Shown here: piece after piece, positions 1 through 63,436 of the stretch
How positions within the stretch are numbered: position 1 is the stretch's first letter
Layout: every line of letters starts with the position of its first letter
DNA from: Bacillota bacterium
Lineage (GTDB): Bacteria; Bacillota; Dehalobacteriia; UBA4068
Direction of reading: 5' to 3'
DNA: 64,000 nt
Assembly: GCA_031553915.1 (NCBI GenBank)
Contig: JAVBKT010000002.1
Location: forward strand, 271,642 to 335,641
The notes under the pieces: model-generated
The model's database searches: none
The model's input: only the letters and a program-made list of their open reading frames with translations
What the model was told of the DNA's origin: nothing
Translations under genes and position numbers: made by a program

Positions 1-32
1 GCTGTAACAAAAACTAGCAAACCTCTTTTCAT
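1..32 (-). CDS. 5' end of a gene running off the window (MKRGLLVFVTA..., signal-peptide-like)
   Basis: GGAGG SD then ATG at 32; preceded by an ECF-type promoter at 79-107; only 10 full codons visible. Confidence 0.55.
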   Translation of the reverse strand, partial: MKRGLLVFVT

Positions 33-78
33 ATCTTTCTCCTCCATCATATATTTTGGCATTATTATGCCTAAACAT

Positions 79-107
79 TAATACTATTAAAAGAGGATTT
101 TGTTACA
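79..107 (-). promoter_or_regulatory. ECF sigma-type promoter, copy 1 (TGTAACA-N16-GTATTA)
   Basis: Same motif and spacing as the copies at 1465-1493 and 1569-1597. Confidence 0.65.
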
Positions 108-124
108 GATTTTGTTAAATTTTT

Positions 125-910
125 TTAAGGATATCTCTCCTGCCATGTAACGCTCCTGGCAATCGCCAGGGCCTCTGACATGGGTAAATTGGTTTGTAGC
201 GTAAAGTCGGTTACATAATCATTCCAATAAATTTTAATCAGCCCGTCTTTTTGGCTGATAATAGCCGGCCAGTCATTGATCTTTTCGCTAAAAGAATAAT
301 CAGCATCAGTTGTATCAATAAGCCGCTGTAAATCTAGGGGCTGTGTGAAAAAATAAATATATTGCTCTCCTTGTTGATAATCAAGCGAAAATTCATTTTT
401 ATCATCAATAATACTTGTCAATTCAAAGCCCGCGGGAATATAGGCGGGCAGATAATATTTGGTAAAGCCCTGATCAACATCATAGCCTAAAATATCCGAC
501 GCATCAGGATTATTCTGGCTTTGGTCAACGCTGACCGCGACATAGTCCTCGTTCCACTCCAGAATATAGTTGTAGACAATCTGGCGAAAACTGGCCGAGG
601 CCGCAAACAATACTGTGGGCGTCGCCAGAGACAAGACAATGGCAATCATCGCTACTGCCGCTGCCTTGCGCCAGTGTTTGGTTATTTTTCTGCGCAGCGC
701 CATGCGCCGCCCCTTGCGGATCAGCTTGGCAATGGTCGCATCTAGCTGCGGTGTCGGCGCCATCTCAACATCCTCTGCCATCAGCTCTTGATATTCCTTG
801 TTCAGCTCCTCTTTGCGTAAAAAAGCGATATAGCGAAACAGCAGTTCAAATTCATTGCCCTTTGGCCAGGATTCCTGCCAATTATGGTCTTTGTTGTTAG
901 TGTTTGGCAT
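125..910 (-). CDS. Anti-sigma factor, DUF4367-type (basic N-terminus, one TM, extracellular domain)
   Basis: TAATG overlap with the ECF sigma gene; single TM; YYLPAYIPAGFEL motif typical of DUF4367 proteins. Confidence 0.8.
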   Translation of the reverse strand: MPNTNNKDHNWQESWPKGNEFELLFRYIAFLRKEELNKEYQELMAEDVEMAPTPQLDATIAKLIRKGRRMALRRKITKHWRKAAAVAMIAIVLSLATPTVLFAASASFRQIVYNYILEWNEDYVAVSVDQSQNNPDASDILGYDVDQGFTKYYLPAYIPAGFELTSIIDDKNEFSLDYQQGEQYIYFFTQPLDLQRLIDTTDADYSFSEKINDWPAIISQKDGLIKIYWNDYVTDFTLQTNLPMSEALAIARSVTWQERYP

Positions 911-1479
911 TAATCTCCCTCCCCATCACGAGATAATTCTTTGTACAGAGCGCTTAAAGCACGGTGCATCCGTACGCGTGCATTGCCCGGGGAGATCTGT
1001 AAATAGTTACTGATTTCGGTATCGCTTAAGCCATTGCAATATCTCAGCATGATTACGTCCCGATAGACATCTGGCAGCTGATTGGCTTTTTCTACGGCTT
1101 TGTCAAAATTTTCTTTGGTGCTGAGCATTTCCGCAAGATCGCTGATATAAACCGCCTCAACTGTTTCCGCAGGCTGTATCTTCTTTCTGCGGGTAATATA
1201 CGTCAGACAATGATTTTTCACCATAGCAAAAACATATGCGGTATTCTGTTGAGCAATCTCATACTCCAAAATTGCCGGATTCTCGATCAGTTTTGCAAAA
1301 ACCTCCTGCACTATGTCCTCGGCCATATGCTCGTCTTTGAGCAGCTTGTAGGCATAGCGCATGAAAGACTCTTTATACTCCGTATATAAGTGGAGCAATA
1401 AATCTCTCTTCTCTGCATCCTCAATCGCCAGTATTAAATTAAGAATAATAATCTCCCCTATCTGTTGTACAATTATCAA
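910..1479 (-). CDS. ECF-family sigma-70 factor (true start may be ATT at 1446)
   Basis: Region 2 (AEDIVQEVF) and region 4 (LSDTEISNYLQISPGNARVRMHRA) motifs. Confidence 0.92.
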   Translation of the reverse strand: MIIVQQIGEIIILNLILAIEDAEKRDLLLHLYTEYKESFMRYAYKLLKDEHMAEDIVQEVFAKLIENPAILEYEIAQQNTAYVFAMVKNHCLTYITRRKKIQPAETVEAVYISDLAEMLSTKENFDKAVEKANQLPDVYRDVIMLRYCNGLSDTEISNYLQISPGNARVRMHRALSALYKELSRDGEGD

Positions 1480-1493
1480 TGAAAATTGTTACA
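1465..1493 (-). promoter_or_regulatory. ECF sigma-type promoter, copy 2 (TGTAACA-N16-GTACAA), likely autoregulatory
   Basis: Directly upstream of the GGGGAG SD of the ECF gene. Confidence 0.65.
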
Positions 1494-1568
1494 GTTTTTT
1501 TCTACCAATTTTTTCCAATTTTTGCCTATTTATATTATAATGGCTTTTAGTACTAATTCAACAGATAT

Positions 1569-1597
1569 TGTAACAATTTGCCTTCTTGTTTGTATTA
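1569..1597 (+). promoter_or_regulatory. ECF sigma-type promoter, copy 3 (TGTAACA-N16-GTATTA)
   Basis: Same motif and spacing as copies 1 and 2, in the divergent orientation. Confidence 0.65.
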
Positions 1598-1602
1598 AAG
1601 AG

Positions 1603-1803
1603 TGCATATGCCTACTTATCTGGCCAATAATCCCGCTTGCATAGTCTGCCGCCCTGCTAAAAACACTAATCTTTGTCTGTAAAATTTTTGGTAGTCTTCA
1701 AAAGCAATTGGTAGTAGGACTCCTCCATCGTCTTTTTGGCGCTATGCAAGCGCCAAGTGGCGCATACGCCAACACACCACCGTTATTGGTGGTGTGTTTT
1801 TTT
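1603..1803 (+). ncRNA. Candidate ~200-nt sRNA or attenuated leader
   Basis: Bounded by an ECF promoter and an intrinsic terminator; 11-bp long-range complement 1634-1644/1742-1752; CTCCTCC at 1720-1726. Confidence 0.4.
1771..1803 (+). terminator. Intrinsic terminator
   Basis: AACACACCACC-GTTATT-GGTGGTGTGTT followed by a T run. Confidence 0.8.
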
Positions 1804-1896
1804 GTCGAAATATTTTTTTGAATATCGTCTGCATTCCCCGCAAAAAACAGCCGCTGCATATCTATAAAAATTTTAACAACTAAGCTTGCCTTTTTG

Positions 1897-1925
1897 TTGA
1901 TTATTGCGCCCACTTTTGTTATCAT
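1897..1925 (+). promoter_or_regulatory. SigA-type promoter of the lipoprotein gene
   Basis: TTGATT-N17-TATCAT with an extended -10 TG. Confidence 0.55.
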
Positions 1926-1947
1926 AAAACAAAGGAGGGTTTCCCTA

Positions 1948-3150
1948 ATGAAAAAACTACTTATTTGTTTATCTGTCTTTATATTTGCGCTATCTCTTTG
2001 TGGCTGCAGCGTACTTTTTAATCTTGGCTACAACCTTACTGCTACTCCCGAGCCGGCGCTGCCCGATGAGCCGGAAATTGAAGACCCGATAGTTCCTGAT
2101 CCGTCTCCAACACAAACTCTTTATATTAAGGATATCGCCATCAGCTTTGATGACCAATTAACTTTTTCAATGCAAGAACAATTAGAGACTAATGGCGTTG
2201 GCTCTCTGCTGCTGGCTTCACCAACAGCAGATAATATAAAAATACCTGTCGTCTACCTTGGGCCGCAGCAATTGGCGCTGCAAAGCGGCGAGGATGCCGA
2301 TAAAATTGCCGCTCAGTTTGAAGCCCTGCTAAACGGCATCACAACTGAGGTCGGCGTTGAGGTAACTGCTTCAGAAATCACCGCTATTGCCCTCAACGGC
2401 GCTGAGGCTTATCAATGCAACTATACCTATGCTGACGCTGATGCGAGCGATATCACCCATACCAGCCGCTATATCCTCTTCATTCATAATGGCAGCATCT
2501 ATGGGCTGGGGCTGGAAACCACCTCCCAAACAGAGATGACATATTTTACCCTCTTTGAGGATATTCTCTCCTCGCTGCAGCTGCTGGAGGTTGCGGACAC
2601 CACCGGATATCACAGCCGGCAGTTTATGGATTTGGCCTTTAGCTATAACTCCAAATACCTCTTGCATGAAACAGTGGACAGCCTCACTTTAACCTGCAAC
2701 AGCCCGGGCTATGTGATCAACATCATCATGGCGGCAGAAGCCTCCGCAGAAGAGCTGGCGGATATTGATGCTCTCCTGAAAAATAAAATTGAACTGCTCA
2801 GCCAGGATATGCGGTTTGCCAACGCAACAGAGCTGTCAGATATCAACATCACCACTATTAACGATCTGCCTGCTGCCACACGCTCCATCCTCTATGCCAA
2901 TGCTGATGAGGAAAGATATTATCAAATCACCGCCTTTGTCATTGGCGAAAAGCTATATTATGTTTCCGTCAATGCCCTGGCCGCTATCAAAGACACCTAC
3001 CAGACTGAATATAATATGCTGGTTTCCTCTGTGATCACCGCCCCGGCAGACAGCGCCGCTACCCCTGACGCTGCCGACGCGGCAAATGGCAACCCTGACG
3101 GCGCATCAGGGGGAGATACCCCTGATGCCAATACCAACACCACTCCGTAA
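1948..3150 (+). CDS. Acidic lipoprotein with two probable PsbP/DcrB-like domains
   Basis: AAGGAGG SD then ATG 1948; lipobox LCGC; two similar beta-rich halves; low-complexity D/A/P/N tail. Confidence 0.75.
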   Translation: MKKLLICLSVFIFALSLCGCSVLFNLGYNLTATPEPALPDEPEIEDPIVPDPSPTQTLYIKDIAISFDDQLTFSMQEQLETNGVGSLLLASPTADNIKIPVVYLGPQQLALQSGEDADKIAAQFEALLNGITTEVGVEVTASEITAIALNGAEAYQCNYTYADADASDITHTSRYILFIHNGSIYGLGLETTSQTEMTYFTLFEDILSSLQLLEVADTTGYHSRQFMDLAFSYNSKYLLHETVDSLTLTCNSPGYVINIIMAAEASAEELADIDALLKNKIELLSQDMRFANATELSDINITTINDLPAATRSILYANADEERYYQITAFVIGEKLYYVSVNALAAIKDTYQTEYNMLVSSVITAPADSAATPDAADAANGNPDGASGGDTPDANTNTTP

Positions 3151-3218
3151 TTAGCAACCGCCCGGGACGAGACCGTCCGGTAATGTGGCGGGGCCCTAAG
3201 GCAGTAATAATTAAAATT

Positions 3219-3259
3219 AAACAAAAGTGACGCCACTAAAGGAGGCGTCACTTTTGTTT
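3219..3259. terminator. Bidirectional terminator
   Basis: 16-bp perfect inverted repeat AAACAAAAGTGACGCC/GGCGTCACTTTTGTTT. Confidence 0.8.
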
Positions 3260-3314
3260 GGCGTCTCCTCGGCAAACCTTCTTAATTAGCGGATAAAATA
3301 TAGGGATACGCTTA

Positions 3315-3343
3315 TTGACATCTCTTCCGCATTGAGATAAAAT
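3315..3343 (+). promoter_or_regulatory. SigA promoter of tRNA-Ala
   Basis: TTGACA-N17-TAAAAT. Confidence 0.8.
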
Positions 3344-3367
3344 GATTCTGCTGCCCATTTTGATTAT

Positions 3368-3443
3368 GGGGGTGTGGCTCAGTTGGGAGAGCGCCTGCTT
3401 CGCATGCAGGAGGCCAGGGGTTCGAATCCCCTCATCTCCACCA
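3368..3443 (+). tRNA. tRNA-Ala(CGC)
   Basis: 76 nt cloverleaf; anticodon arm CCTGC-TTCGCAT-GCAGG; TTCGAAT T-loop; CCA end. Confidence 0.97.
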
Positions 3444-3450
3444 AAGTGAA

Positions 3451-3484
3451 TCCCCCGCTACATGTTATTGTAGCTGGGGATTTG
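3451..3484 (+). terminator. Terminator after tRNA-Ala
   Basis: TCCCC.GCTACA / TGTAGC.GGGGA hairpin followed by TTTG. Confidence 0.6.
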
Positions 3485-3681
3485 TTATGTCCGCGGCGCA
3501 GCAACTCGCCAGTGTGATAAGAAACCTATTTCTATCCATACTAATAAATGTGCGGCCAATCATCATAACTTGCTGATATATTTAATTTGCGCAAAAATAT
3601 TGAGCAGAAAGACTTGTATCTTAGTACTATTTATGTATAATAGATATATTCCTCGGATTATTGGGAAAGGCAACTCCTCAT

Positions 3682-5073
3682 ATGGCTCATAAATTTCACA
3701 AACTGAAATTATCTCCGCCACAGGCTATTCTGCTGGGGTTTGCTGCGATGATACTTTTGGGCGCTTTTTTGCTCAGCTTGCCTGCCGCCAGTAAAAGCGG
3801 CCAAAGCATCGGCTTTGTTGACGCTATTTTTTCTGCTACCTCCGCTACCTGCGTAACCGGTCTCACTGTCGTCGATACGGTGGAGCACTGGACCACTTTT
3901 GGCAAGGTAGTAATCCTGGCGCTGATCCAGTTTGGCGCGCTGGGCTTTATGACCATTCTCACTTTGCTGATGATGCTGATGCGCAAAAACATATCCCTGC
4001 GCAACCGCCTGGTTATTCAGGCCTCGTTCAATCAAAACAATATTGGCGGCATGGTGCGCCTGGTCAAAAACGTCATCCTTATCACCTGCGCCTTTGAGGC
4101 CATCGGCGTGTTGATTCTTACCCTAAGCTTCCACTTTGGCGAGGGGATGCCGATGAGTGAGTCTTTATATCAGGGCATATTCCATGCCATCTCCGCCTTT
4201 TGTAATTCCGGGATAAGCACCTTTAGCGATGGGCTGACTGCTATCAGCAGCAATACTCTGGCCATTGCTACCATAACCGCTCTTTTTATTTGCGGCGGCC
4301 TTGGCTTTACTGTGTGGTCAGAATTAATTACGCTGACCAAAAATAAACAGCGTCTGCCTCTGCGCAATCGGCTGGTACACCTTTCCCTGCATACCAAGCT
4401 TGCTCTGATGATGACCGGGATACTCCTCGTATCCGGCTGGATACTCTTTGCCGTATTGGAGTGGCATAACCCGGCAACCTTCGGCAATATGCCAGTCAAT
4501 GAAAAAATAGGCACTGCTTTTTTCCATTCAGCAAATTTGCGCACAGCCGGCTTTAATCTATTTAATACCGACGGGCTGACAGAAATATCCAAGTTCTTCT
4601 CCGGTATTTTTATGTTTATCGGCGGATCGCCGTCCGGTACAGCCGGGGGATTAAAAACTGTCACCATCGCCATTGTCATTTTTTCTATGATTTCCGTGCT
4701 CCGGGGACGCAATAATATCGAGGCCTTTGGCCGTACCCTACCCATAGATTTATTGCAAAAGGCCCTGACTGTCATCTGCACCGTGATGATTGTGGTTGTG
4801 ACCTCGACGATCATCCTCTATTTTACCGAACAGACAACTCTTTATCCGCATACCTTTTGGGATATCCTGGTGGAAAGCTGCTCGGCAGCCACCTCCGCTG
4901 GCATCAGTACCGGCATCACCCCATATCTCTCCACCGCAGGTAAAATAGTTATCAGCTTATGTATGTTCTTGGGCCGTCTCGGCCCGATAACAGTTGTTGT
5001 TGCGCTCTCTATGCGCTTGAATAACAGCCACGACGGCACCTCTTTGCCGGAAGAACGGGTAATTATTGGCTAA
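3682..5073 (+). CDS. ktrB: TrkH/KtrB-family K+ uptake membrane subunit
   Basis: SATCVTGL, SAFCNSG, RTAGF and GGSPSGTAGGLK pore motifs; ATG at 3682. Confidence 0.92.
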   Translation: MAHKFHKLKLSPPQAILLGFAAMILLGAFLLSLPAASKSGQSIGFVDAIFSATSATCVTGLTVVDTVEHWTTFGKVVILALIQFGALGFMTILTLLMMLMRKNISLRNRLVIQASFNQNNIGGMVRLVKNVILITCAFEAIGVLILTLSFHFGEGMPMSESLYQGIFHAISAFCNSGISTFSDGLTAISSNTLAIATITALFICGGLGFTVWSELITLTKNKQRLPLRNRLVHLSLHTKLALMMTGILLVSGWILFAVLEWHNPATFGNMPVNEKIGTAFFHSANLRTAGFNLFNTDGLTEISKFFSGIFMFIGGSPSGTAGGLKTVTIAIVIFSMISVLRGRNNIEAFGRTLPIDLLQKALTVICTVMIVVVTSTIILYFTEQTTLYPHTFWDILVESCSAATSAGISTGITPYLSTAGKIVISLCMFLGRLGPITVVVALSMRLNNSHDGTSLPEERVIIG

Positions 5074-5108
5074 AAACAGTGATTATTAACTAAAAGGAAA
5101 GGATTATT

Positions 5109-5753
5109 ATGCCTAACAAAAATAAAAATAAAAATTTTGCCGTGCTTGGTCTGGGACGCTTTGGCATGAGTATTGTGCAGACTCTATCGGAATATGATGT
5201 CAATGTTCTGGCCTGTGATGTTGATGAGGCGAAAATTCATCAGGTGGCGGATTTGGCCACGCATGTGATGCGGGCAGACCTCTCAGATGAAGGAGTACTC
5301 GCCACGCTGGGCCTGGGCAACTTTGATGTTGTTATTCTAGCCATGGGCGAGGAATTTGAGGCCTCGGTTATTGCCACAATGTTTGCCAAGGAAGAAGGCG
5401 CCAAATGGGTTATTGCTAAAGCGCGGACTATTCGCCAGAAACGCATCCTCGAAAATATCGGCGCAGATGAAGTTGTGCTGCCCGAGCATCAGATGGGCGC
5501 AAAAATCGCCGCCAAGCTGGTGGGCAGCAATATTCTCGATATTCTCGATGAATCTGATTTCTATACTATTTCAGAAATGCGCCCCAAGCCGGAATGGATT
5601 GGCAAAACCGTCAAGCAGGCAGATATCCGCAGAAAGGATGATTTAACCGTGCTGGCTATCCGCCACAAGGATAAACTGAGCATCCCTGTTTCTCCGGATA
5701 CGCTGATCTGCGCAGAGGATATTCTCATCACCCTCAGTGAGCATCGAAAATAG
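5109..5753 (+). CDS. ktrA: TrkA/KtrA-family RCK regulatory subunit
   Basis: GLGRFG Rossmann motif; TrkA-C tail; adjacent to ktrB. Confidence 0.92.
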   Translation: MPNKNKNKNFAVLGLGRFGMSIVQTLSEYDVNVLACDVDEAKIHQVADLATHVMRADLSDEGVLATLGLGNFDVVILAMGEEFEASVIATMFAKEEGAKWVIAKARTIRQKRILENIGADEVVLPEHQMGAKIAAKLVGSNILDILDESDFYTISEMRPKPEWIGKTVKQADIRRKDDLTVLAIRHKDKLSIPVSPDTLICAEDILITLSEHRK

Positions 5754-5764
5754 GCAAAAAATTA

Positions 5765-5790
5765 CCCCCGCTTGAAAAGCGGGGGTTTTT
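5765..5790 (+). terminator. Terminator of ktrBA
   Basis: CCCCCGCTT-GAA-AAGCGGGGG-TTTTT. Confidence 0.85.
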
Positions 5791-5838
5791 ATTTATCGAT
5801 TTTAACCGCTTCAAAACATCTACGCTTATAATCTGCTA

Positions 5839-6756
5839 CTACCCCTCTTCACCCTTGGCCGGCGCTTGTTTTTTATAGTTGGTTAACAGCACACCGCTGA
5901 TGACCGCCACAGCGCCCACCGCAAAGCTCCATCCCGGCTGCTCATCAAGAATAATAATGGCCGCAATAGTGGCAAAGATAGGCGAGAGATTATAAAAAAC
6001 GCCGGATCGGGAGGTGCCGATAATACCAATGCTGGCATAGTACCAGGTAAAAGCCAGGGCAGAGCATAAGCCGCCCAGCACAAACAGAGAAACCCAGACC
6101 GGCCAATCCAGCGCCATAATCAACTCACGCTCAAAACCGCTTTCCCAATAGGCGGGGATAATCAAAACAATTGCCGCAATCAGGCAAGCCCAGGTGACGG
6201 CGGCCAAAGGCTCCAGTGTTTGCTGCGCCAAGCGGTTGAGAAAAGTATAGATCACCCAGGCAGCCAGACCGAGAAGAATATAAATCTCTCCTGAAGACAA
6301 GCTATGGCGGAACAGATCAGCCAGATTTCCCTCACAAATAATAAACACCGCGCCAAAGGCTGAGACAATAATACCGAGGATTTGCACGGGCCGCAATTTG
6401 TCCTTAAAAATAATCGCAGAAATCAGAGCCACCAAAACCGGGTTCAGGGCCATGATCATTGAGGCGTAGCTGGCCTCCACTGTTTTTAGTCCGGAGATGA
6501 AAAAATAATTATATACAGCCATGCCGATCACAGCCATGCCGATGACAATCAGAGCTTCTTTGCGCTGCAAACGCGGCAGCCGTCCTCCTTTGGCATAAAG
6601 GGCAATCAGCAACACCACAGCGGCAATGATAAAACGAAAACAAGCTGCGGTCCAGGGCGGCATAGCTTGGGCGACAATATTGCCGGCGACAAACCCCGCT
6701 CCCCAGAGGAGATTAACTACAATCTGTTTGAGATAGTTTTGGCTGAGAAGAGACAT
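5839..6756 (-). CDS. DMT/EamA family transporter
   Basis: About 10 TM segments in two EamA repeats. Confidence 0.88.
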   Translation of the reverse strand: MSLLSQNYLKQIVVNLLWGAGFVAGNIVAQAMPPWTAACFRFIIAAVVLLIALYAKGGRLPRLQRKEALIVIGMAVIGMAVYNYFFISGLKTVEASYASMIMALNPVLVALISAIIFKDKLRPVQILGIIVSAFGAVFIICEGNLADLFRHSLSSGEIYILLGLAAWVIYTFLNRLAQQTLEPLAAVTWACLIAAIVLIIPAYWESGFERELIMALDWPVWVSLFVLGGLCSALAFTWYYASIGIIGTSRSGVFYNLSPIFATIAAIIILDEQPGWSFAVGAVAVISGVLLTNYKKQAPAKGEEG

Positions 6757-16593: not shown

Positions 16594-19116
16594 TTATCTT
16601 TCTTTAGCAAAGTGTGTTTTTCTCATACCTAGCTTGACCAGCTCATACCACAGCACAGAGACTGCTCCCAGACCAATGGCGAGAGTCAGCTGCGGCAGGC
16701 TAAGCGGAGCCAGGCCCAAAAAACTATTTACAGGGCTATAAAGAATTATTGCCAGCAGCAAACAGGCCAAAATATTAACCGCCCACATCACCTTGTCTTG
16801 GCGCAGCTTGCTAATTGTTTGCCACCAGGGCTGAGCATAAGAGCTGTTGACCTGCACCAAAAACAAATTCGCTATCATCAGCACTGTCAAACCTACCGAG
16901 CGGGCAATTTCCGACGCAGCAAAATTATTTTGTAGCAGCAGATAATAGGCGGCAAATGACGCGGCGAAAATGACTAACCCCTGCACCATACCCTTAGCCA
17001 CTATCGCCCGTGTCAAAATATTCTCGTTGGGATCACGCGGCGGAAGGGACATGATATTGTTTTCCGCCGGCTGACGCTCCAAAACCACGGAGCAGGTCGG
17101 GTCAATCACCAGCTCCAGGAGCATGATATGAAAGGGCAGCAGCATCAGCGCTTCCATCGGTATCGAGAGCATCGGCCCCAGCAAAGAAACGAGAGCAATG
17201 GGAATATGAATAGCAAAAATATAGCCGATCGCTTTGCGGATATTATCATAGATGCGTCTGCCATCGCGAATGGTATCGACAATGGTAGAAAAATTATCAT
17301 CCAACAAAACTAAATCCGCTGCTTCGCGGGCAATTTCTGATCCGCGCTTGCCCATAGCAATACCAATATCAGCATATTTGAGCGCAGCAGCGTCATTGAC
17401 GCCATCTCCGGTCATCGCCACAATTTGCCCATTAGCCTGGAAAGCAGTGACAATACGCATTTTATGTTCCGGGATCACTCTGGCAAAAACGCGCGCGCTT
17501 TGCACTGCCGCGCTTAACTCCTCGTCGCTCATCTGTTCCAGCATAGCTCCTGTTATCACCTGCTCTTGCTCAATCCCCACCTGCTCGGCAATAGCTTTGG
17601 CCGTCAGCGCATTGTCGCCGGTAATCATCACCACCGCTATGCCTGCCTGGTGACAAAGAGCAATATCTTCTTTGATACCCCCTCTGGGCGGGTCAGCCAG
17701 CGCGATCAGCCCTAACAGCCGCAAGCGGCAATTCTCTATGTTTTCGGGCAAAACTTCTGCACTCTTGACCGATGCTGTTGCCACTGCCAAAACGCGTAGT
17801 CCTTGAGAACACAGCTGCTGTAAGGCCTCATTTGCCTGCCTCGACTCTTCCGCTGACAAATCACATAAAGAAAAGACACTCTCCGCTGACCCTTTGGCGG
17901 CAATAATCACATCGCCCTCAATTTGCCAGACATGCGCCATCATCTTCGTCTGATTGGTGAAGGGATATTCCTTGATAATTTCCCCGGCACAATCACTAGC
18001 TGCCACACCCTGATCCATGGTATAGCGGATGATAGCCTTCTCCATCGGGTCATATGCTTCTTGCTCGCAGGCCATCATTGCTATTTTATTGAATTCCGCC
18101 GCAGCCGCTCCTGCCAGCCAGGTCTGGTCAACTACCATCTCGTTTTTGGTAAGCGTGCCTGTTTTATCAACACAAAGCACAGAGATCGCTCCCAATGTTT
18201 CTGTGGCTGGCAAATGGCGGATTAAAGAATTTTTTCTTGCCAAACGCCAGGCACCCATTGAGAGAAAAACAGTCAGGACCACCGGAAATTCTTCCGGAAT
18301 CATCGCCATTGCTAAAGTAATGCCTGCCAGAATGCTGTTGACTGCTCTTTCCTTGAGCAGCAAATCACTGAGATCAAAAAAGGTTATTGCGGCAACCAAA
18401 AGGCAAAGCGCCAGGGCCAGCCAGGCGCAAAATTTCACCAAACGGCGCATTTGTTTTTGCAGCGGAGTAGGCCTTACCGGCGCCTGGGCCAAAGCCGCGC
18501 TGATCTTGCCGTATTCGCTGTTGACGCCGGTTTTTTCCACCTGTACTAAGGCAAATCCCTGCAACACAAAGGTACCCGCATAGCAATAGTCCCTGCGCCA
18601 ATAATCAGCGCTGCTATCAGCGCTAAGATCAGCGCTTTTCCACACACCCTCAGCTTCCCCGGTGAGCGAGCTTTCATCCACACACAGATCATTGCAGGCG
18701 ACAATCAGGCCATCGACAGAAATTTTGTCTCCCTCGGTAATTTCCAGCAAATCTCCGGGAACCAGCTCCGTGGTTGCAATCTGCTTTTGAACTCCATCGC
18801 GGATAACCGTGCTATTAGGCTGGGAAAGCTCGCGCAGGGCGCGCAGGGTTTTATCTGTCTTCCATTCCTGAAAGATATCAATAGCAATAATCAGCACCAC
18901 AAAAACCAGCATAACCGCACCGTCAGCCGGCTCGCCCAAAAAGAAATAGATCAGTGCCGCGCCAAGCAACAGCAGAAACATCGGCTCGCGGATAATGGCC
19001 GCTGCCTGACGCAAAAAACCGGCCTTTTTTTCTGGCTCCAGCTCGTTTTTGCCAAAGCGGAGCAGCCGTTCTTTGGCTTCTTCACTGGTCAGTCCCTGCA
19101 ATTTGTGGCTATTCAT
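16594..19116 (-). CDS. Cation-translocating P-type ATPase (type II-like)
   Basis: TGE, IPEEFP, DKTGT, DPPR, MITGD and TGDGVNDA motifs; AGGAGG SD before ATG 19116. Confidence 0.95.
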   Translation of the reverse strand: MNSHKLQGLTSEEAKERLLRFGKNELEPEKKAGFLRQAAAIIREPMFLLLLGAALIYFFLGEPADGAVMLVFVVLIIAIDIFQEWKTDKTLRALRELSQPNSTVIRDGVQKQIATTELVPGDLLEITEGDKISVDGLIVACNDLCVDESSLTGEAEGVWKSADLSADSSADYWRRDYCYAGTFVLQGFALVQVEKTGVNSEYGKISAALAQAPVRPTPLQKQMRRLVKFCAWLALALCLLVAAITFFDLSDLLLKERAVNSILAGITLAMAMIPEEFPVVLTVFLSMGAWRLARKNSLIRHLPATETLGAISVLCVDKTGTLTKNEMVVDQTWLAGAAAAEFNKIAMMACEQEAYDPMEKAIIRYTMDQGVAASDCAGEIIKEYPFTNQTKMMAHVWQIEGDVIIAAKGSAESVFSLCDLSAEESRQANEALQQLCSQGLRVLAVATASVKSAEVLPENIENCRLRLLGLIALADPPRGGIKEDIALCHQAGIAVVMITGDNALTAKAIAEQVGIEQEQVITGAMLEQMSDEELSAAVQSARVFARVIPEHKMRIVTAFQANGQIVAMTGDGVNDAAALKYADIGIAMGKRGSEIAREAADLVLLDDNFSTIVDTIRDGRRIYDNIRKAIGYIFAIHIPIALVSLLGPMLSIPMEALMLLPFHIMLLELVIDPTCSVVLERQPAENNIMSLPPRDPNENILTRAIVAKGMVQGLVIFAASFAAYYLLLQNNFAASEIARSVGLTVLMIANLFLVQVNSSYAQPWWQTISKLRQDKVMWAVNILACLLLAIILYSPVNSFLGLAPLSLPQLTLAIGLGAVSVLWYELVKLGMRKTHFAKER

Positions 19117-19142
19117 AATTAGCCTCCTTATCTCTTTATAAT

Positions 19143-19187
19143 AAAAAAACATACCTGTAGGATAGTCTTACTGTCCCACAGATATGT
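19143..19187 (-). terminator. Riboswitch expression-platform terminator
   Basis: 14-bp stem ACAUAUCUGUGGGA/UCCUACAGGUAUGU plus U run; 5' arm overlaps the aptamer. Confidence 0.85.
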
Positions 19188-19258
19188 TGCTTCTTATCTG
19201 CTGCCGTAAATCACGGCCCGGCTCTTGCTTGCGCAGCGCCTGTTCAGATTGTACTGTA
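19168..19258 (-). ncRNA. NiCo (czcD) metal-sensing riboswitch aptamer
   Basis: Minus strand reads CAGUACAAUCUGAACAGGC...GAGCCGGGCC...GGCAGCAGAUA...UAUCUGUGGGACAGUA, the conserved strings of the NiCo four-way junction; upstream of a cation ATPase. Confidence 0.85.
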
Positions 19259-46537: not shown

Positions 46538-47368
46538 TCATATCCTCATCATAATCTCTGCGATCAAAGCGGAAAAACGCTGCTCGACCATTTTTCCTGT
46601 TGCGGTAACCTCTTCATGGGTAAGCGGCTGCTTACTGAGGCCTGCGGCCAGATTAGTAATGCAGGAAATAGCTAACAAGCGCAGGTCCATCTGTCTGGCA
46701 GCTATCGCTTCCGGAACAGTTGACATGCCCACCGCGTCGGCGCCGAGCAGACGCAGCATCTTGATCTCCGCCGGGGTTTCAAAGGCCGGACCAGAGAGCC
46801 CGCAATAGACGCCTTTTTGCAGCGCAAATCCCAGCTTTATGGCTGCCTGCTCAGCGATCTCCGCATATTCTTGATCATATACCGCGCTCATATCCGGAAA
46901 ACGCGGCCCCCATTCAGGCGCGTTCTCTCCCCTAAGAGGACTATAACCGGTAAAATTAATATGGTCGCTGATCAACATCAGGTCTCCCGGCGCAAAAGCG
47001 CTGTTGATACCGCCTGCCGCATTGGTCAAAAGCAGGCTGCGGCAGCCCAGCTTAGCCAAAACCCGTATTGGCAGTATCACCGTATGCGGAGTATGACCCT
47101 CATAATAATGAAAACGCCCGCTCAATACATATACCTGCTTGCTGCCAATTTTCCCTGAGAGCAATGTACCGCTGTGGCCGAGAACTGTCGGTAGCGGAAA
47201 ATGCGGAATATCCGCATAATCAATTGTCACCGCGCCGCTCAGATTATCCGCTAAGGCGCCTAAGCCGGAGCCAAGGACAATGGCGATATCCGCCGGCGGT
47301 AAGACTGCGGATATCGCCTGCGCCGCTTCCTCAATTATACGCAATTCTTTTAATAAGGATTCGCTCAT
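46538..47368 (-). CDS. punA: Purine-nucleoside phosphorylase
   Basis: LGSGLG, GRFHYYEG, FETPAE, GMSTVPE. Confidence 0.96.
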   Translation of the reverse strand: MSESLLKELRIIEEAAQAISAVLPPADIAIVLGSGLGALADNLSGAVTIDYADIPHFPLPTVLGHSGTLLSGKIGSKQVYVLSGRFHYYEGHTPHTVILPIRVLAKLGCRSLLLTNAAGGINSAFAPGDLMLISDHINFTGYSPLRGENAPEWGPRFPDMSAVYDQEYAEIAEQAAIKLGFALQKGVYCGLSGPAFETPAEIKMLRLLGADAVGMSTVPEAIAARQMDLRLLAISCITNLAAGLSKQPLTHEEVTATGKMVEQRFSALIAEIMMRI

Positions 47369-49929: not shown

Positions 49930-51969
49930 TTATTCTTTCTCTTCTTTGGCTGCTTTGGCGGCGGCCACCACCTTGTCGGCAATATTGGACGGAACTTCTT
50001 CATAGCTGGCAAATTTCATCGTAAACTTGCCGCGGCCCTGGGTAATAGATTTCAGGTCAATGGCATAGCGGTGCATTTCCGACAAAGGCGCCTGCGCATG
50101 AATCATCTGGCGTTTACCCTGCTGTTCCATACCCATAATCCGTCCGCGTTTGGTATTCATATCGCCCATGATATCACCCATGAACTGATCCGGAACCAGA
50201 ATATCAACATCTACAACCGGCTCCAGCAAAATGGGCTTGGCTTGCTCGCAGGCTTTCTTAAAGGCAATATTGGCTGCCAGCTTAAAGGCCATCTCCGAGC
50301 TGTCAACATCATGATAAGAGCCATCCACCAGCGTAATGCGGATATTTGTAGCGGGGAATCCGGCTAAAACGCCTTCCTGCATCGCTTCGCGCATACCTTT
50401 TTCAACAGCGGGGATATATTGCTTAGGCACCGAACCGCCGAAGATTTTTTCTTCAAAAATGAATTCTTCATTGGGCTCATAGGCAATGTCAATTTTGACA
50501 TGGCCGTATTGGCCGTGTCCGCCGGATTGTTTCTTATGCTTGCCTTCGACCAGCTGCGCTGTACCGCGGATTGATTCACGGTAAGGCACCTTAACCTCAA
50601 CCGGATCAACCTCAACGCCAAATTTGCTGGAAAGCCGCGAGATAATAATATTCAAATGCGCCTCGCCCACACCGGTAAGCAGAGTTTGGTGGGTTTCGGC
50701 ATTCTTTTCATAACGCAGGGTTGGGTCTTCTTCCAGCAGACGGGAAATAGCATTACCCAGCTTATCTTCATCGCCTTTGGTGCGGGGAACAATGGCTATG
50801 GTAAGGTTTGGCTCTGGGAAATCAATGCCGTCCAAAATGATATTGCTGCCCTTGGCGGTCAAGGTATCGCCGGTAACCGTTGCGGTCAGCTTGCTCACTG
50901 TGGCAATATCACCGAGATTGACTTCCTGGAGGGCAATAGCGTTTTTGCCCTGCATGGTAGAGATTTGCGCAACCTTTTCATCAACTTTTTTGTTGGCATT
51001 GTACATCGTCTGGTCGCCCTTCATTTTGCCGGACATAACCTTAAACATGCTAATACGGCCAACAAAGGCATCTGCCATTGTTTTGAAAATGAGCGCTGCC
51101 GGGGCTTCATTGGCTGCGGCAGCATCCAACCTGGCGAGTGGAGACGGAGCATAATCCACCAGGATATCCAGCAGCTTATCTGCGCCAATGCTCTTGGTGG
51201 CGCAGCCGCAAGCGACAGGAACAACCTTGCCGGCCTTGAGCCCTTCTTTGAGGCCGAGGATGATTTCAGCATCTGTTAGCTCTTCACCATCCAGATATTT
51301 CATGGTGATATCATCATCGCCTTCAGCGGCGGCTTCAATCATCATTTCGCGATAATGTTCGACATCCGCCTGCATATCAGCTGGAATAGCAATCTCGCTG
51401 GCCTTACCGTTATCATATTTATAGGCCTTCATGCTGATTAGATCAACCATGCCGTTGAAGCTGTCTTCCTTGCCGATCGGCAGCTGGATAGGTACGATTT
51501 GACGGGTAAGGGTGGATTTCATCGAATCAAGCGCCTGATAAAAATCAGCGTTTTCCTTATCCATTCTATTGATAAAGGCCATCATTGGGATATTATTATC
51601 ATCAGCCATCTCCCAAATAATTTCTGTCGAAACCTCAACGCCGGCCACAGCATCAAGCACCATAACCAGGCAGTCAGCTACACGCAGGGTGCTGACAACT
51701 TCACCGAAAAAGTCAGAAAAGCCGGGAACGTCCAGGACGTTAATTTTATGGTCCTTCCACTCGCAAGCTACCAAAGAGGTATTGACTGTACTCTTTCTTT
51801 TCAACTCCTCAGGATGATAGTCGGCTACAGTATTGCCGTCGTCAATTTTACCTAGACGAGTGGTAGCGCCGGTAGCATAAATTAATGCTTCGGTTAAAGA
51901 GGTTTTTCCTGCCCCTTGATGGGCAACAATACCGACATTACGGATTTTTTCACTGGGATAGACCTTCAT
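49930..51969 (-). CDS. fusA2: Elongation factor G paralog (EF-G II type)
   Basis: Full five-domain EF-G layout (KHKKQSGGHGQYGH, DGSYHDVDSSEMAF); divergent G motifs; outside the str operon. Confidence 0.92.
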   Translation of the reverse strand: MKVYPSEKIRNVGIVAHQGAGKTSLTEALIYATGATTRLGKIDDGNTVADYHPEELKRKSTVNTSLVACEWKDHKINVLDVPGFSDFFGEVVSTLRVADCLVMVLDAVAGVEVSTEIIWEMADDNNIPMMAFINRMDKENADFYQALDSMKSTLTRQIVPIQLPIGKEDSFNGMVDLISMKAYKYDNGKASEIAIPADMQADVEHYREMMIEAAAEGDDDITMKYLDGEELTDAEIILGLKEGLKAGKVVPVACGCATKSIGADKLLDILVDYAPSPLARLDAAAANEAPAALIFKTMADAFVGRISMFKVMSGKMKGDQTMYNANKKVDEKVAQISTMQGKNAIALQEVNLGDIATVSKLTATVTGDTLTAKGSNIILDGIDFPEPNLTIAIVPRTKGDEDKLGNAISRLLEEDPTLRYEKNAETHQTLLTGVGEAHLNIIISRLSSKFGVEVDPVEVKVPYRESIRGTAQLVEGKHKKQSGGHGQYGHVKIDIAYEPNEEFIFEEKIFGGSVPKQYIPAVEKGMREAMQEGVLAGFPATNIRITLVDGSYHDVDSSEMAFKLAANIAFKKACEQAKPILLEPVVDVDILVPDQFMGDIMGDMNTKRGRIMGMEQQGKRQMIHAQAPLSEMHRYAIDLKSITQGRGKFTMKFASYEEVPSNIADKVVAAAKAAKEEKE

Positions 51970-61181: not shown

Positions 61182-62726
61182 TTAGCAAGGGAAATTGCCA
61201 TGCTTTTTGCCGGGGCGTGTTTCTTTCTTGCTGAGCAAGGCGTCAATGGCTTTGATCACATAGAAACGGCTGACTTCCGGTTCGATCACCGTATCAACCA
61301 GGCCGCGGCTGGCAGCATGATAGGGATCAGCATAGCTGTCCTCATACTCAGCTGTTTTGATGCCCCGCATGGCATGTGGATCAGCAGCTTGATCAATCTC
61401 TTCGCGGAAAAGGATATTGGCTGCGCCCAGGGGGTCCATGACGGCAATCTGCGCTGTGGGCCAGGCTATCACCATATCCGCGCCCAGAGCCTTGCTGCAC
61501 ATGGCCAAATAAGCGCCCCCGTAAGCCTTGCGGGTGATCACCACCACCTTGGGCACAGATGCTTCCGCATAGGCATAAACGAGCTTGGAGGCATGGCGGA
61601 TAATACCGTTATCGTTTTCAGCAATAGTGGGAACATATCCGGGAGTATCGACAAAGGTTAACAGCGGAATGCCCATCGAATCACAAAAACGCACAAAGGA
61701 ACTGGCTTTGTCGCTGCTGTTAATATCCAGGCAGCCGGAGGCGGAATTGGGCTGATTGGCAACAACGCCAATACTGACGCCATTCATCCTGATCAACCCT
61801 GTTATGATATTGGTAGCAAAATAAGCTTGTACCTCGAAAAAGTCTTGATTATCAGCAATATTGCGGATAATATCATGCATATCATAAGGCTGGTTAGCAT
61901 CTTCCGGCAATAAATCTGCCAGGGCCGCAGTACGTTCAGCAGGATCGCTGCATTTATACATGGGAGAACCCTCGAGATTATTAGCCGGCAAAAAGGAGAG
62001 CAAGCGTTTGATCTGCGACAGGCAATCAGCCTCGTCCACCGCATAAAAGTGAGCGGAGCCGCTTTTGGCATTATGCGTCATCGCGCCTGCCAAGTCCTCA
62101 GCGCTAATATTAGTGTTGGCCACAGCGCTCACTACTCCGGGCGCAAGCAGGCCCATCTCCGCACCGTTCACCATAAAGGTAAAATCGCTGAGGGCCGTAG
62201 TGATGGCTGCCCCGCCATAGCAGGGGCCCATAATAGCGGTAATCTGCGGTATCACCCCGGAAGCTAAAACACTGCGGCGGTAAATTTCCGCATAGCCGTT
62301 TAAGGCGTCAATGCCCTCTTGGATACGCGCTCCGGCGCTATCGCTGATGCCGATAAGGGGAACTCCGGCTGATAGGGCCATATCCATCACCTTACAAATT
62401 TTCGCGGCATGCATCTCTCCCACAGAGCCGCCAAAAACAGTAAAATCCTGAGAATAAACATAGACCAGTCTGCCATCCACATTACCATAGCCTGTTACGA
62501 CACCTTCTCCGGGTATTGCAATATCCCGCATGTCAAAAGCTACACTTCTGTGAGTAACGAACTGATCCAGTTCCATAAAGCTGCCAGCATCGAGCAAAGC
62601 GTCAATTCTTTCTCTGGCAGTCATTTTCCCAGCGCTATGCTGTTTAGTAATTTTCTCTTCACCGCCGGCTGCGAGAACTTGTTCCCTTTTAGCAGCAAGT
62701 TTTTCCAGCTTGGCTTCTTTTGACAT
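61182..62726 (-). CDS. mmdA: Methylmalonyl-CoA decarboxylase alpha (carboxyltransferase) subunit
   Basis: GKMTARERI, GARIQEG, RKAYGGAY, KKHGNFP; AGGAGG SD before ATG 62726. Confidence 0.88.
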   Translation of the reverse strand: MSKEAKLEKLAAKREQVLAAGGEEKITKQHSAGKMTARERIDALLDAGSFMELDQFVTHRSVAFDMRDIAIPGEGVVTGYGNVDGRLVYVYSQDFTVFGGSVGEMHAAKICKVMDMALSAGVPLIGISDSAGARIQEGIDALNGYAEIYRRSVLASGVIPQITAIMGPCYGGAAITTALSDFTFMVNGAEMGLLAPGVVSAVANTNISAEDLAGAMTHNAKSGSAHFYAVDEADCLSQIKRLLSFLPANNLEGSPMYKCSDPAERTAALADLLPEDANQPYDMHDIIRNIADNQDFFEVQAYFATNIITGLIRMNGVSIGVVANQPNSASGCLDINSSDKASSFVRFCDSMGIPLLTFVDTPGYVPTIAENDNGIIRHASKLVYAYAEASVPKVVVITRKAYGGAYLAMCSKALGADMVIAWPTAQIAVMDPLGAANILFREEIDQAADPHAMRGIKTAEYEDSYADPYHAASRGLVDTVIEPEVSRFYVIKAIDALLSKKETRPGKKHGNFPC

Positions 62727-62923
62727 CTCTTTACCTCCTAAAATATCTAAAAGAATACGAACAAATCGCAAAACACAGCACACCAATAATTAAGACAAGA
62801 TGCTTTTAGACAAAAAAAATAATCGTAAAAAATCTATTACTATATTACTGCATTAATATAATATTTAGGATAACATAAATAGTAGTGTATCGCAATGATA
62901 ATTTTTTTAAAAATGAAATTTTA

Positions 62924-63070
62924 TTAAAAATTTTTGATACTATAAACAAAGCATAGTGAGCTGAGGAACAAGCAAATCAAGACGGCTGACATCAAAACGA
63001 TGCAGACCGATAAGAGCTGCGCCAAAAGGCCAACTGTGACAACAACAAAGTAAGCAAATTTTATCAACAC
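62924..63070 (-). CDS. Possible 48-aa hydrophobic peptide
   Basis: GTG start; MLIKFAYFVVVTVGLLAQLLSVCIVLMSAVLICLFLSSLCFVYSIKNF; no clear SD. Confidence 0.25.
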   Translation of the reverse strand: MLIKFAYFVVVTVGLLAQLLSVCIVLMSAVLICLFLSSLCFVYSIKNF

Positions 63071-63073
63071 TCT

Positions 63074-63436
63074 TAGCCATTTGGGATGCGAACCCCATGC
63101 GGTTTTGGCGGAAAAACGCTGGCATCTCCCGATAAAAACATTGTTTCCCGTAGATATACTACGAAAAGCAATGTTTTCACCAGGATTTGTTTAGTTAAAA
63201 CCAAGATGTTTCATCTTGGTTTTAACTAAATGCATAGCTGAGATTTTGCCATAGGCAAAAGCCAGCTAGGTCTCACTGTTTTCCAGTCAAAACTGCTAAC
63301 ACCCCGACGGAGGGAGGGTCGGGCTGGGCCAGGCAGAGTGACGAAGGCAGGCTGGACGCCTGCCTAGGAGCGATAACAAAGCGCCAGCTCGACCAAACGC
63401 CGTCCGGGGCGCATGAGTTTGCATCCCTAATGGCTA
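63074..63436. other. 363-nt multi-hairpin element (structured ncRNA or MITE-like)
   Basis: 28/27-nt terminal inverted repeat enclosing at least four long hairpins, including a perfect 19-bp one. Confidence 0.7.

What the first reader, a model, noticed from the sequence alone, without database searches (positions are those of the whole stretch)
1603..1803. Candidate ECF-driven ~200-nt RNA with switchable folds and an anti-SD motif
Seen: the segment lies between an ECF promoter and a perfect 11-bp terminator, and the downstream lipoprotein gene has its own SigA promoter. CGCTTGCATAG (1634-1644) is exactly complementary to CTATGCAAGCG (1742-1752). That second segment can instead form the local hairpin TTGGCGCT/AGCGCCAA (1736-1756), so the two folds exclude each other. 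CTCCTCC (1720-1726) is a perfect anti-SD. Known: Gram-positive trans-acting sRNAs often use C-rich anti-SD loops, and envelope-stress sigmas often have sRNA arms. Inference: an unannotated sRNA or attenuator.
Basis: partly seen in the sequence, partly recalled or inferred. Interest (0 to 1): 0.65.

Follow-up and report, generated by a model that had tools for sequence, protein, structure and literature searches.

The report
Orphan promoter-to-terminator unit beside ECF sigma
Next to a stress sigma-factor gene of an uncultured gut Clostridia bacterium lies a 200-base stretch built like a small RNA gene (sigma-specific promoter motif, then a strong terminator), but no RNA from it is seen where the neighbouring sigma operon is highly expressed, and it has no relatives, so it is an ordinary, unproven small-RNA candidate.

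Summary
These are the exact 11-nt complement (1634-1644/1742-1752), the competing hairpin (1736-1756), CTCCTCC (1720-1726) and a strong terminator (1771-1798 plus T7, -19.5 kcal/mol). TGTAAC-N16-WGTA occurs three times in 64 kb (0.15 expected), always at this ECF sigma/anti-sigma locus and each time facing a transcription unit. A ~200-nt promoter-to-terminator unit on the + strand is therefore a fair reading.

The rest is not supported:
- The body fold is unexceptional (z -2.7; 5.5% of random windows match it; the opposite strand gives the same MFE).
- The alternative fold costs +4.9 kcal/mol and never involves the terminator, and there is no antiterminator, so it is not an attenuator.
- Anti-SD pairing is not target-specific.
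- There is no Rfam hit, no homolog and no second copy. The nearest relative lacks the whole locus.
- In the only metatranscriptome carrying this organism, the adjacent ECF operon has the deepest mRNA contig of the 44 kb examined (depth 62.7). No contig covers 1440-1949.

Verdict: an orphan, constitutively terminated divergent unit. It is an unverified sRNA candidate of a known kind, with negative expression evidence.

The parts
1569..1595 (+). ECF-type promoter motif TGTAACAA-N14-TGTAT, pointing at the candidate unit; predicted start about 1601-1603
   Evidence: It is one of three copies of TGTAAC-N16-WGTA in the window. It forms a 33-nt, 73% inverted repeat with the sigma-gene copy (I1).
1468..1493 (-). 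Same motif (TGTAACAA-N14-TGTAC) upstream of the ECF sigma gene; presumed autoregulated promoter
   Evidence: The X2 RNA contig of the operon ends at 1420, about 40 nt inside the predicted start near 1460.
82..107 (-). Third copy of the motif (TGTAACAA-N14-AGTAT), ahead of a 152-aa secreted-protein gene that starts at window 32 and runs off the left end
1603..1804 (+). Candidate ~200-nt non-coding transcript (promoter-to-terminator unit)
   Evidence: No RNA contig covers it. No Rfam match at E<=10.
1604..1651 (+). 5' arm of the predicted long-range helix (31 pairs in all), containing the exact 11-mer 1634-1644
1737..1769 (+). 3' arm of the long-range helix, containing the 11-mer 1742-1752; 1736-1756 can instead form a local 8-bp hairpin at a cost of 4.9 kcal/mol
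1720..1729 (+). CUCCUCCAUC, complementary to GAUGGAGGAG-type Shine-Dalgarno regions; partly paired in the MFE; opening energy for CUCCUCC is 1.8 kcal/mol
1771..1804 (+). Intrinsic terminator: 12-bp stem, 4-nt loop, T7; -19.5 kcal/mol. It works on the + strand only, because no T-run follows it on the - strand.
   Evidence: strand reading
1897..1925 (+). Sigma-70-like promoter (TTGATT-17-TATCAT with TG) of the lipoprotein gene
   Evidence: The X2 contig of the gene begins at 1950.
1948..3150 (+). Lipoprotein gene (signal peptide ending LSLCGC), an ORFan
910..1452 (-). ECF sigma factor gene; start codon uncertain (ATT near 1452-1445 after GGGGAG, or TTG at 1398)
125..910 (-). Anti-sigma factor candidate with a C-terminal DUF4367 domain

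Best explanation
The segment is an orphan divergent transcription unit of the local ECF sigma locus. A third copy of the locus-specific promoter motif (TGTAAC-N16-TGTA, 1569-1594) faces away from the sigma gene. Any RNA started there, at about 1603, is stopped about 200 nt later by a strong, unconditional intrinsic terminator (1771-1804). That is before it reaches the lipoprotein gene, which has its own sigma-70-like promoter.

The product is a short non-coding RNA predicted to fold as one long imperfect hairpin plus the terminator. On present evidence it is rare or unstable. The clearest effect of the arrangement is to uncouple the lipoprotein gene from the ECF promoter, so the terminator acts as an insulator.

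Shown: the motif triple, the terminator, the absence of an antiterminator, and the absence of RNA contigs. Inferred: that the motif is an ECF promoter, that it fires, and that the terminator's role is insulation.
For: - The motif is restricted to this locus, and each copy faces a unit.
- The architecture TGTAAC-N16-xGTA resembles the Bacillus sigma-W/sigma-X consensus TGAAAC-N16-CGTA / TGTAAC-N17-CGAC (my own knowledge, not tested here).
- The sigma protein passes the ECF superfamily model (TIGR02937: 78 bits against a cut-off of 42.9).
- The terminator is strong and specific to the + strand, with no + strand gene upstream of it.
- Nothing competes with the terminator. Both candidate folds keep it.
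- In X2 the operon contig has depth 62.7 and ends at 1420. The lipoprotein is covered only at 3-7, starting at 1950. Depth is zero across 1475-1949. Lipoprotein expression is therefore not coupled to the operon.
- The segment is a GC island within AT-rich intergenic DNA.
Against: - No transcription start has been mapped, so the motif could be something other than a promoter.
- The -10-like element has T or A where characterised ECF promoters have C (CGT).
- If the promoter fired as strongly as its twin, an RNA with a paired 5' end and a 3' hairpin should be stable and visible. It is absent from X2, although tRNA-derived contigs of 31-71 nt were captured.
- Insulation is an inference. It cannot be told apart from a relic terminator with one genome.
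- Only contigs were available, not reads.
Confidence: 0.4

Rival explanations
1. It is a trans-acting ECF-dependent sRNA, the repressor arm of the sigma regulon. The ~200-nt RNA accumulates on sigma activation and pairs through CUCCUCCAUC(GU) with Shine-Dalgarno regions to block translation. A possible target is the operon's own third gene, which would give feedback.
For: - Promoter-to-terminator anatomy with no ORF of 30 aa or more that ends before the terminator.
- The C-rich motif is cheap to open, at 1.84 kcal/mol.
- A 12-bp match (one G-U) to AUGAUGGAGGAG at the SD of the 152-aa gene, and a 10-mer match at the SD of the gene starting at 47368.
- GC island.
- Precedent: sigma-E-dependent MicA/RybB/MicL (PMC4102768), and C-rich seeds of RsaE/RoxS (PMC6158497, PMC8216469).
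Against: - No RNA contig in X2, where the ECF operon has the deepest mRNA contig of the 44 kb examined.
- Small structured RNAs are captured in that library.
- The SD matches rank only about 14th-18th of 33,010 windows, and many intragenic sites score better.
- The fold is not exceptional, and the opposite strand gives the same MFE.
- No homolog, no paralog, no Rfam hit.
Confidence: 0.15
2. It is a relic or chance assembly. The terminator, and perhaps the GC-richer body, are left over from a + strand gene lost when the ECF module was acquired. The promoter-like motif is an inactive duplicate, and nothing is transcribed today.
For: - Zero RNA coverage.
- The locus is accessory. The nearest relative (TrkH 69% identical) keeps the TrkH-TrkA-EamA-lyase-LytB synteny but has other genes here. 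A tRNA gene is adjacent, and integrases sit at this position in other relatives.
- The inverted repeat and the fold are within the window's background.
- The fold is equally good on both strands.
Against: - No trace of a decayed ORF: no Pfam hit for any frame's ORFs at E<=1.
- The motif keeps both half-sites and the exact spacing, which a decaying duplicate would be expected to lose.
- The terminator is perfect.
Confidence: 0.25
3. It is a regulated 5' leader (attenuator) of the lipoprotein gene. ECF-driven transcripts read through the terminator under some signal.
For: - The divergent neighbour is the usual ECF target.
- The leader would be about 345 nt and contain a terminator.
- The patchy, low coverage of the lipoprotein mRNA (nothing beyond 2486) means read-through at that level cannot be excluded.
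Against: - No antiterminator or other structure competes with the terminator.
- No known aptamer or leader model matches.
- The lipoprotein contig begins at 1950, next to its own promoter.
- Lipoprotein depth is about 10-fold below that of the operon.
Confidence: 0.08
4. It is the mRNA of a 24-aa cysteine-containing peptide (ATG 1607 to TAA 1681, MPTYLANNPACIVCRPAKNTNLCL). This could be a type I toxin-like arrangement, with the 5' end sequestered by the 3' region.
For: - The ORF exists.
- Its start codon lies in the 5'/3' closing helix, as in type I toxin mRNAs (my own knowledge).
Against: - There is no Shine-Dalgarno within the predicted transcript, and the ATG is 4-6 nt from the predicted 5' end.
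- The peptide is not hydrophobic.
- No homologs, and it is too short to test for coding potential.
Confidence: 0.03

Closest known systems
Sigma-E-dependent envelope-stress sRNAs of enterobacteria (MicA, RybB, MicL; PMC4102768)
   Same: A short non-coding unit with an ECF-type promoter and an intrinsic terminator. It is proposed to pair with translation-initiation regions and to give an activator sigma a repressor arm.
   Different: - Those RNAs are abundant on sigma activation, conserved, dependent on Hfq, and have defined seeds.
- Here no RNA is detected while the sigma operon is highly covered.
- There is no conservation and no sequence or structure similarity: no Rfam hit at E<=10.
C-rich-motif sRNAs of Firmicutes (RsaE/RoxS; PMC6158497, PMC8216469)
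   Same: A C-rich stretch complementary to G-rich Shine-Dalgarno sequences in a Gram-positive, and a terminator-ended RNA of roughly 100-200 nt.
   Different: - RsaE/RoxS carry several C-rich regions and are conserved across Firmicutes.
- Here there is one CUCCUCC, partly paired, and no match to any Rfam family in 1440-1950.
- The promoter type differs.
Promoter-plus-orphan-terminator sRNA predictions (the sRNAPredict/SIPHT style of candidate)
   Same: It meets exactly this criterion: an intergenic promoter motif, an orphan Rho-independent terminator 200 nt downstream, and no ORF of 30 aa or more that ends before the terminator.
   Different: Such predictions usually also require conservation, which cannot be met here. 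From my own knowledge, a large share of such candidates fail experimental validation.
Terminator/antiterminator leaders (riboswitches, T-boxes, protein-mediated attenuation)
   Same: A terminator lies upstream of a gene in the same orientation.
   Different: There is no alternative pairing with the terminator arm, no aptamer match, and the downstream gene has its own promoter.

Membership tests
ECF sigma-dependent promoter | Bipartite motif with an AAC-containing -35 and a short -10 about 16-17 nt downstream, repeated upstream of the sigma gene itself (autoregulation) | tested here: met
   TGTAAC-N16-WGTA occurs at 1468-1493(-), 1569-1594(+) and 82-107(-), the only 3 hits in 64 kb against 0.15 expected. 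The pattern was derived post hoc. The -10 has T/A where known ECF promoters have C.
ECF sigma-dependent promoter | A transcription start 6-9 nt downstream that depends on the sigma factor | not testable with these tools
   Only contigs of one metatranscriptome were available. The operon contig ends at 1420, compatible with a start near 1460. No start data exist for the + strand copy.
Intrinsic (Rho-independent) terminator | A GC-containing stem-loop followed directly by a U-tract on the transcribed strand | tested here: met
   12-bp stem, 4-nt loop, T7, -19.5 kcal/mol. The - strand version lacks a T-run.
Trans-acting sRNA (sigma-E-type repressor arm) | A discrete, abundant transcript when the sigma regulon is on | tested here: not met
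   Zero contig depth over 1440-1960 in X2 and X3 at 80% likeness or more. The operon reaches depth 62.7, against 0-16 for most genes. This is contig-level evidence only.
Trans-acting sRNA (sigma-E-type repressor arm) | A conserved seed and structure in related genomes (covariation) | not testable with these tools
   - The sigma factor has no close relative and the lipoprotein none at all.
- The nearest relative lacks the locus.
- There is no DNA match in phages, plasmids, JGI metagenomes or the source metagenome.
Trans-acting sRNA (sigma-E-type repressor arm) | Seed pairing that singles out specific targets | tested here: inconclusive
   The 12-bp match to the SD of the 152-aa gene scores -21.0 kcal/mol. 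It ranks about 18th of 33,010 windows, and better sites lie inside genes.
RsaE/RoxS family | Match to the family covariance model, and several C-rich regions | tested here: not met
   No Rfam match in 1440-1950 at E<=10. There is a single CUCCUCC, with unpaired probabilities of 0.27-0.91 per base.
Transcription attenuator / riboswitch leader | Mutually exclusive terminator and antiterminator structures | tested here: not met
   With the 3' arm blocked, the 5' arm stays unpaired. The best upstream duplex, -9.4 kcal/mol, uses GGCG/CGCC and not the arm. The alternative fold keeps the terminator.
Transcription attenuator / riboswitch leader | A known ligand- or tRNA-binding domain | tested here: not met
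   No Rfam family matches in the segment.
Type I toxin-antitoxin | A small hydrophobic membrane peptide ORF with a sequestered ribosome-binding site | tested here: not met
   The only ORF that ends before the terminator encodes MPTYLANNPACIVCRPAKNTNLCL. It is not hydrophobic and has no SD in the predicted transcript.

The most novel reading that the evidence does not exclude
A Gram-positive (termite- or invertebrate-gut Clostridia) ECF sigma factor with its own dedicated anti-Shine-Dalgarno sRNA, transcribed divergently from the sigma gene. It would feed back on the operon's third gene through a 12-bp match to its ribosome-binding site. That would be a Firmicute analogue of the sigma-E/MicA-RybB repressor arm, invented independently in a lineage-specific accessory module.
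Probability: 0.1. Interest if true: 0.55.

Novelty: new member of a known kind. Interest (0 to 1): 0.25.

Why it matters
If the RNA exists and acts in trans, it would be one of the few ECF-sigma-dependent sRNAs outside Proteobacteria. It would show that repressor arms arise repeatedly, even in strain-specific sigma modules. As it stands, the useful results are narrower:
- A putative three-promoter regulon motif (TGTAAC-N16-WGTA) for an uncharacterised ECF/DUF4367 system.
- A worked example in which appealing hand-read features (complementary 11-mers, "switch" folds, an anti-SD heptamer) do not exceed the genomic background.

Tried and rejected
- Rfam at E<=10 over 1-6000 and at gathering threshold over the whole window: nothing in the segment.
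- Comparative genomics:
  - GTDB species representatives searched with the sigma factor gave only 25-43% identical paralog-level hits.
  - The 5.8-billion-protein search found the sigma factor and the lipoprotein only as themselves.
  - An exhaustive phmmer of the lipoprotein found only itself.
  - The nearest genome by TrkH (69% identity) lacks the locus.
  - Covariation is therefore impossible.
- DNA searches:
  - Plasmids and phages: no match.
  - The 21-mer hairpin in JGI metagenomes: none.
  - The two-arm pattern hit 8 JGI contigs. They are an unrelated long-palindrome family that shares only the 11-mers. Rejected as homologs.
  - blastn/nhmmer against the rest of the window and all fetched loci: no paralog.
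  - Source-metagenome contigs at 80% likeness: only the contig itself.
- Antiterminator search: none.
- Target scan: not specific.
- Pseudogene check of all intergenic ORFs against Pfam: none.
- Distant ECF loci L001-L005, examined for a recurring divergent architecture: not divergent, so uninformative.
- TTGGTAG direct repeats (1688, 1708, and 1502 on the - strand): 9 in the window against 5.3 expected, so not significant window-wide.
That boundary is inferred from the contig length alone.

Full report
**Setting.** The window starts inside a small operon on the minus strand.
- An ECF sigma factor lies at 910 to about 1452. It matches Sigma70_r2 and r4_2, and scores 78 bits on TIGR02937 against a cut-off of 42.9.
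- A membrane protein with a C-terminal DUF4367 domain, the presumed anti-sigma, lies at 125-910.
- A 152-aa protein with a signal peptide starts at window 32 and runs off the left edge. It was seen on the source contig L007.
- On the plus strand, an ORFan lipoprotein gene lies at 1948-3150, followed by a tRNA gene at 3368-3440.
- The finding lies in the 495-nt divergent intergenic region between the sigma gene and the lipoprotein gene.
- The DNA comes from an invertebrate-gut metagenome (the Logan sample is named). The best TrkH matches are uncultured Clostridia named Christensenellaceae/Oscillospiraceae/Eubacteriales "OttesenSCG".

**Checking the observation.** Every sequence statement is correct at the given coordinates.
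- The 11-mers 1634-1644 and 1742-1752 are perfectly complementary.
- 1736-1743 and 1749-1756 can form a local 8-bp hairpin that overlaps the second 11-mer.
- CTCCTCC lies at 1720-1726.
- The terminator is an 11-bp perfect stem, 12 bp with a G-U pair, followed by seven T. On its own it folds at -19.5 kcal/mol. On the minus strand no T-run follows the hairpin, so it is a plus-strand terminator with no plus-strand gene upstream of it.

**The promoter.**
- TGTAACAA occurs four times in 64 kb, all within the first 1600 bases.
- Three copies share the full architecture TGTAACAA-N14-(T/A)GTA(C/T):
  - 1493 to 1468 (minus), facing the sigma gene;
  - 107 to 82 (minus), facing the 152-aa gene;
  - 1569 to 1594 (plus), facing the candidate segment.
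- The bipartite pattern has 3 hits against 0.15 expected. I wrote the pattern after seeing the sites, so this is descriptive and not a clean test.
- The spacing and the -35 resemble the Bacillus sigma-W/sigma-X consensus (my own knowledge). The -10 has T/A where those promoters have C.
- A start near 1601-1603 is therefore plausible but unmapped.

**The fold.**
- 1603-1803 folds at -66.2 kcal/mol with z = -5.1, but 19.5 kcal/mol of that is the terminator.
- The body, 1603-1770, folds at -46.7 with z = -2.69.
- Against the same genome's background this is ordinary. 5.5% of 400 random 168-nt windows have as low a z. On GC-adjusted MFE it ranks at the 22nd percentile of 10,641 windows.
- The reverse complement folds to the same energy, so the fold does not pick a strand.
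- Perfect inverted repeats of at least 11 bp within 150 nt number 17 in the window against 2.6 expected. The excess is short-loop terminator hairpins. For the six long-gap repeats, about two are expected by chance.
- The segment is a GC island (37-54% GC) between 22-35% GC flanks. That is mild support for constraint.

**The "switch" and the attenuator idea.**
- Forcing the local hairpin 1736-1756 costs 4.9 kcal/mol.
- In the ensemble the long-range 11-mer helix is essentially always formed: the unpaired probability is 0.00 across it, and opening it costs 9.1 kcal/mol.
- Both folds leave the terminator intact.
- With the terminator's 3' arm blocked, its 5' arm pairs with nothing. The best upstream duplex with that region is -9.4 kcal/mol and does not use the arm.
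- Termination is therefore predicted to be unconditional, and the attenuator alternative has no structural basis.

**The anti-SD motif.**
- CUCCUCC is partly paired in the MFE but cheap to open, at 1.84 kcal/mol.
- The extended CUCCUCCAUC occurs three times on the plus strand. The other two copies are the antisense of the Shine-Dalgarno regions of the 152-aa gene and of the gene starting at 47368.
- Pairing with the 152-aa gene extends to 12 bp, which suggests feedback on the operon.
- In a scan of every 36-nt window on both strands, however, these two sites (-21.0 and -21.5 kcal/mol) rank only about 14th-18th. Many better sites lie inside genes.
- The motif is compatible with SD targeting, but the scan does not single out any target.

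**Expression.** One DNA run (X1) and two metatranscriptomes of the same study (X2, X3) are available, as assembled contigs only.
- In X2 a 1922-nt contig of depth 62.7 covers window 1-1420 and, by its length, about 500 nt to the left.
  - That is the whole sigma/anti-sigma/152-aa operon.
  - It stops about 40 nt short of the start predicted from the ECF motif.
- Across another 40 kb of the window, this organism's genes sit at depth 0-16, and hpf at 31.8. The ECF operon is therefore the most strongly covered mRNA seen.
- The lipoprotein gene is covered only patchily at depth 3-7, beginning at 1950.
- Between 1440 and 1949 there is no contig at all in X2 or X3, even at 80% likeness. No RNA run in the index holds any word of 1603-1803.
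- tRNA-derived contigs of 31-71 nt, one crossing an inter-tRNA spacer without mismatch, appear at depth 36-190. Small structured RNAs are therefore not excluded from this library.
- An RNA with a paired 5' end and a terminator hairpin, made from a promoter as active as its twin, should have been assembled.
- Caveats: contigs show presence and not absence, 200-nt RNAs are under-represented in standard libraries, and the operon might be driven by another promoter.

**Conservation.** This cannot be tested.
- The sigma factor's best non-self hit among 5.8 billion proteins is 27% identical.
- The lipoprotein has no relative, either in the word-indexed search or in an exhaustive phmmer of 1.84 billion representatives.
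- GTDB representatives give only 25-43% identical sigma paralogs.
- The nearest genome fragment (TrkH 69% identical, L008) shares the downstream synteny: TrkH, TrkA, EamA, lyase, LytB/S1, acyltransferase and cytidylate kinase. Upstream it has DUF1847/DUF2229 genes in place of the ECF module. Other relatives have an integrase at this position. The module is accessory DNA next to a tRNA gene.
- DNA searches found no homolog or paralog.
- The eight JGI contigs that matched the two-arm pattern are an unrelated palindromic family.

**Interpretation.** I commit to the following, at confidence 0.4.
- The segment is an orphan divergent unit of the ECF locus: a third regulon-type promoter whose transcripts are ended unconditionally after about 200 nt.
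- The demonstrable consequence is that the lipoprotein gene, with its own sigma-70-like promoter, is uncoupled from the ECF promoter.
- The RNA itself is rare or unstable in the one sample available.

The rivals are:
- A true anti-SD sRNA (0.15).
- A relic with no present transcription (0.25).
- A conditional leader (0.08).
- A 24-aa peptide mRNA (0.03).

**Comparison with the known.**
- The unit would work like the sigma-E-dependent sRNAs (PMC4102768) or like the C-rich sRNAs of Firmicutes (PMC6158497, PMC8216469). It is not a member of either family: it matches no covariance model, no abundant transcript was seen, and there is no conservation.
- It meets the classic "promoter plus orphan terminator" criterion for an sRNA candidate, a class in which many candidates fail validation (my own knowledge).
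- Novelty: at most a new member of a known kind.
- Interest: 0.25.

Noticed in passing
window 63060-63300, minus strand (perfect 19-bp hairpin arms at 63190-63208 / 63228-63246): This is the strongest GC-adjusted fold in the whole window: 168-nt MFE of -76.9 at 38% GC, 6.7 SD below trend. It is a run of long hairpins in the roughly 830-nt gap between the start of the minus-strand gene 61182..62786 and the plus-strand hpf-like gene. Rfam gives no real match, only spurious miRNA hits. X2 depth there is about 1.
   Followed up: partly
window 1-1420 and about 500 nt to the left (L007 about 1552-3473): The ECF sigma / DUF4367 anti-sigma / 152-aa secreted-protein operon forms a single RNA contig of depth 62.7 in metatranscriptome X2. 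That is several-fold above every other gene examined in 44 kb of the window, so this sigma system appears to be switched on in the gut sample.
   Followed up: partly
window 1948-3150: The lipoprotein (lipobox LSLCGC, 400 aa) is a strict ORFan. It has no Pfam or NCBIfam family. Its only hit is itself, both among 5.8 billion word-indexed proteins and in an exhaustive phmmer of 1.84 billion representatives.
   Followed up: yes
window 17-60 versus 1700-1756, minus strand: On the minus strand both places read hairpin, then GCCAAAA, then 4-5 nt, then GATGGAGGAG. At 17-60 this is the real 5' UTR and SD of the 152-aa gene. At 1700-1756 no ORF follows (13 codons only). This could be chance in A-rich SD contexts or a trace of a duplicated gene start.
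   Followed up: no
window 1398-1479, minus strand: The start of the sigma gene is unclear. The listed TTG at 1479 lies upstream of the predicted transcription start. After the strong SD GGGGAG (1458-1453) come only ATT codons. The next conventional start in frame is TTG at 1398.
   Followed up: no
L011-L018 (JGI contigs Ga0209149, Ga0209637, Ga0209339, Ga0209338, Ga0209781): Eight metagenome contigs carry a family of palindromes about 250-300 nt long. The arms contain GACA/GTCT-type simple repeats and the core GCGCTTGCATAGC...GCTATGCAAGCGC. They are unrelated to the window apart from the 11-mers, and their nature is unknown.
   Followed up: partly
window 19169-19257, minus strand: A NiCo (nickel/cobalt) riboswitch scores 67.7 bits, just upstream of the 852-aa gene 16594..19152.
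   Followed up: no
window 3150-3660, with L008, L009 and L010: The region upstream of TrkH is variable among relatives. Here it holds the ECF module plus a tRNA gene. L008 has DUF1847/DUF2229 genes there, and L009/L010 have a tyrosine-recombinase gene. The ECF/lipoprotein module therefore looks like accessory DNA.
   Followed up: partly
window 50457-50759: X2 contigs show two "skips" (148 and 221 nt, one at depth 115.8) inside the 679-aa gene 49930..51969. They are probably chimeric or foreign contigs of a conserved gene and not a real deletion.
   Followed up: no
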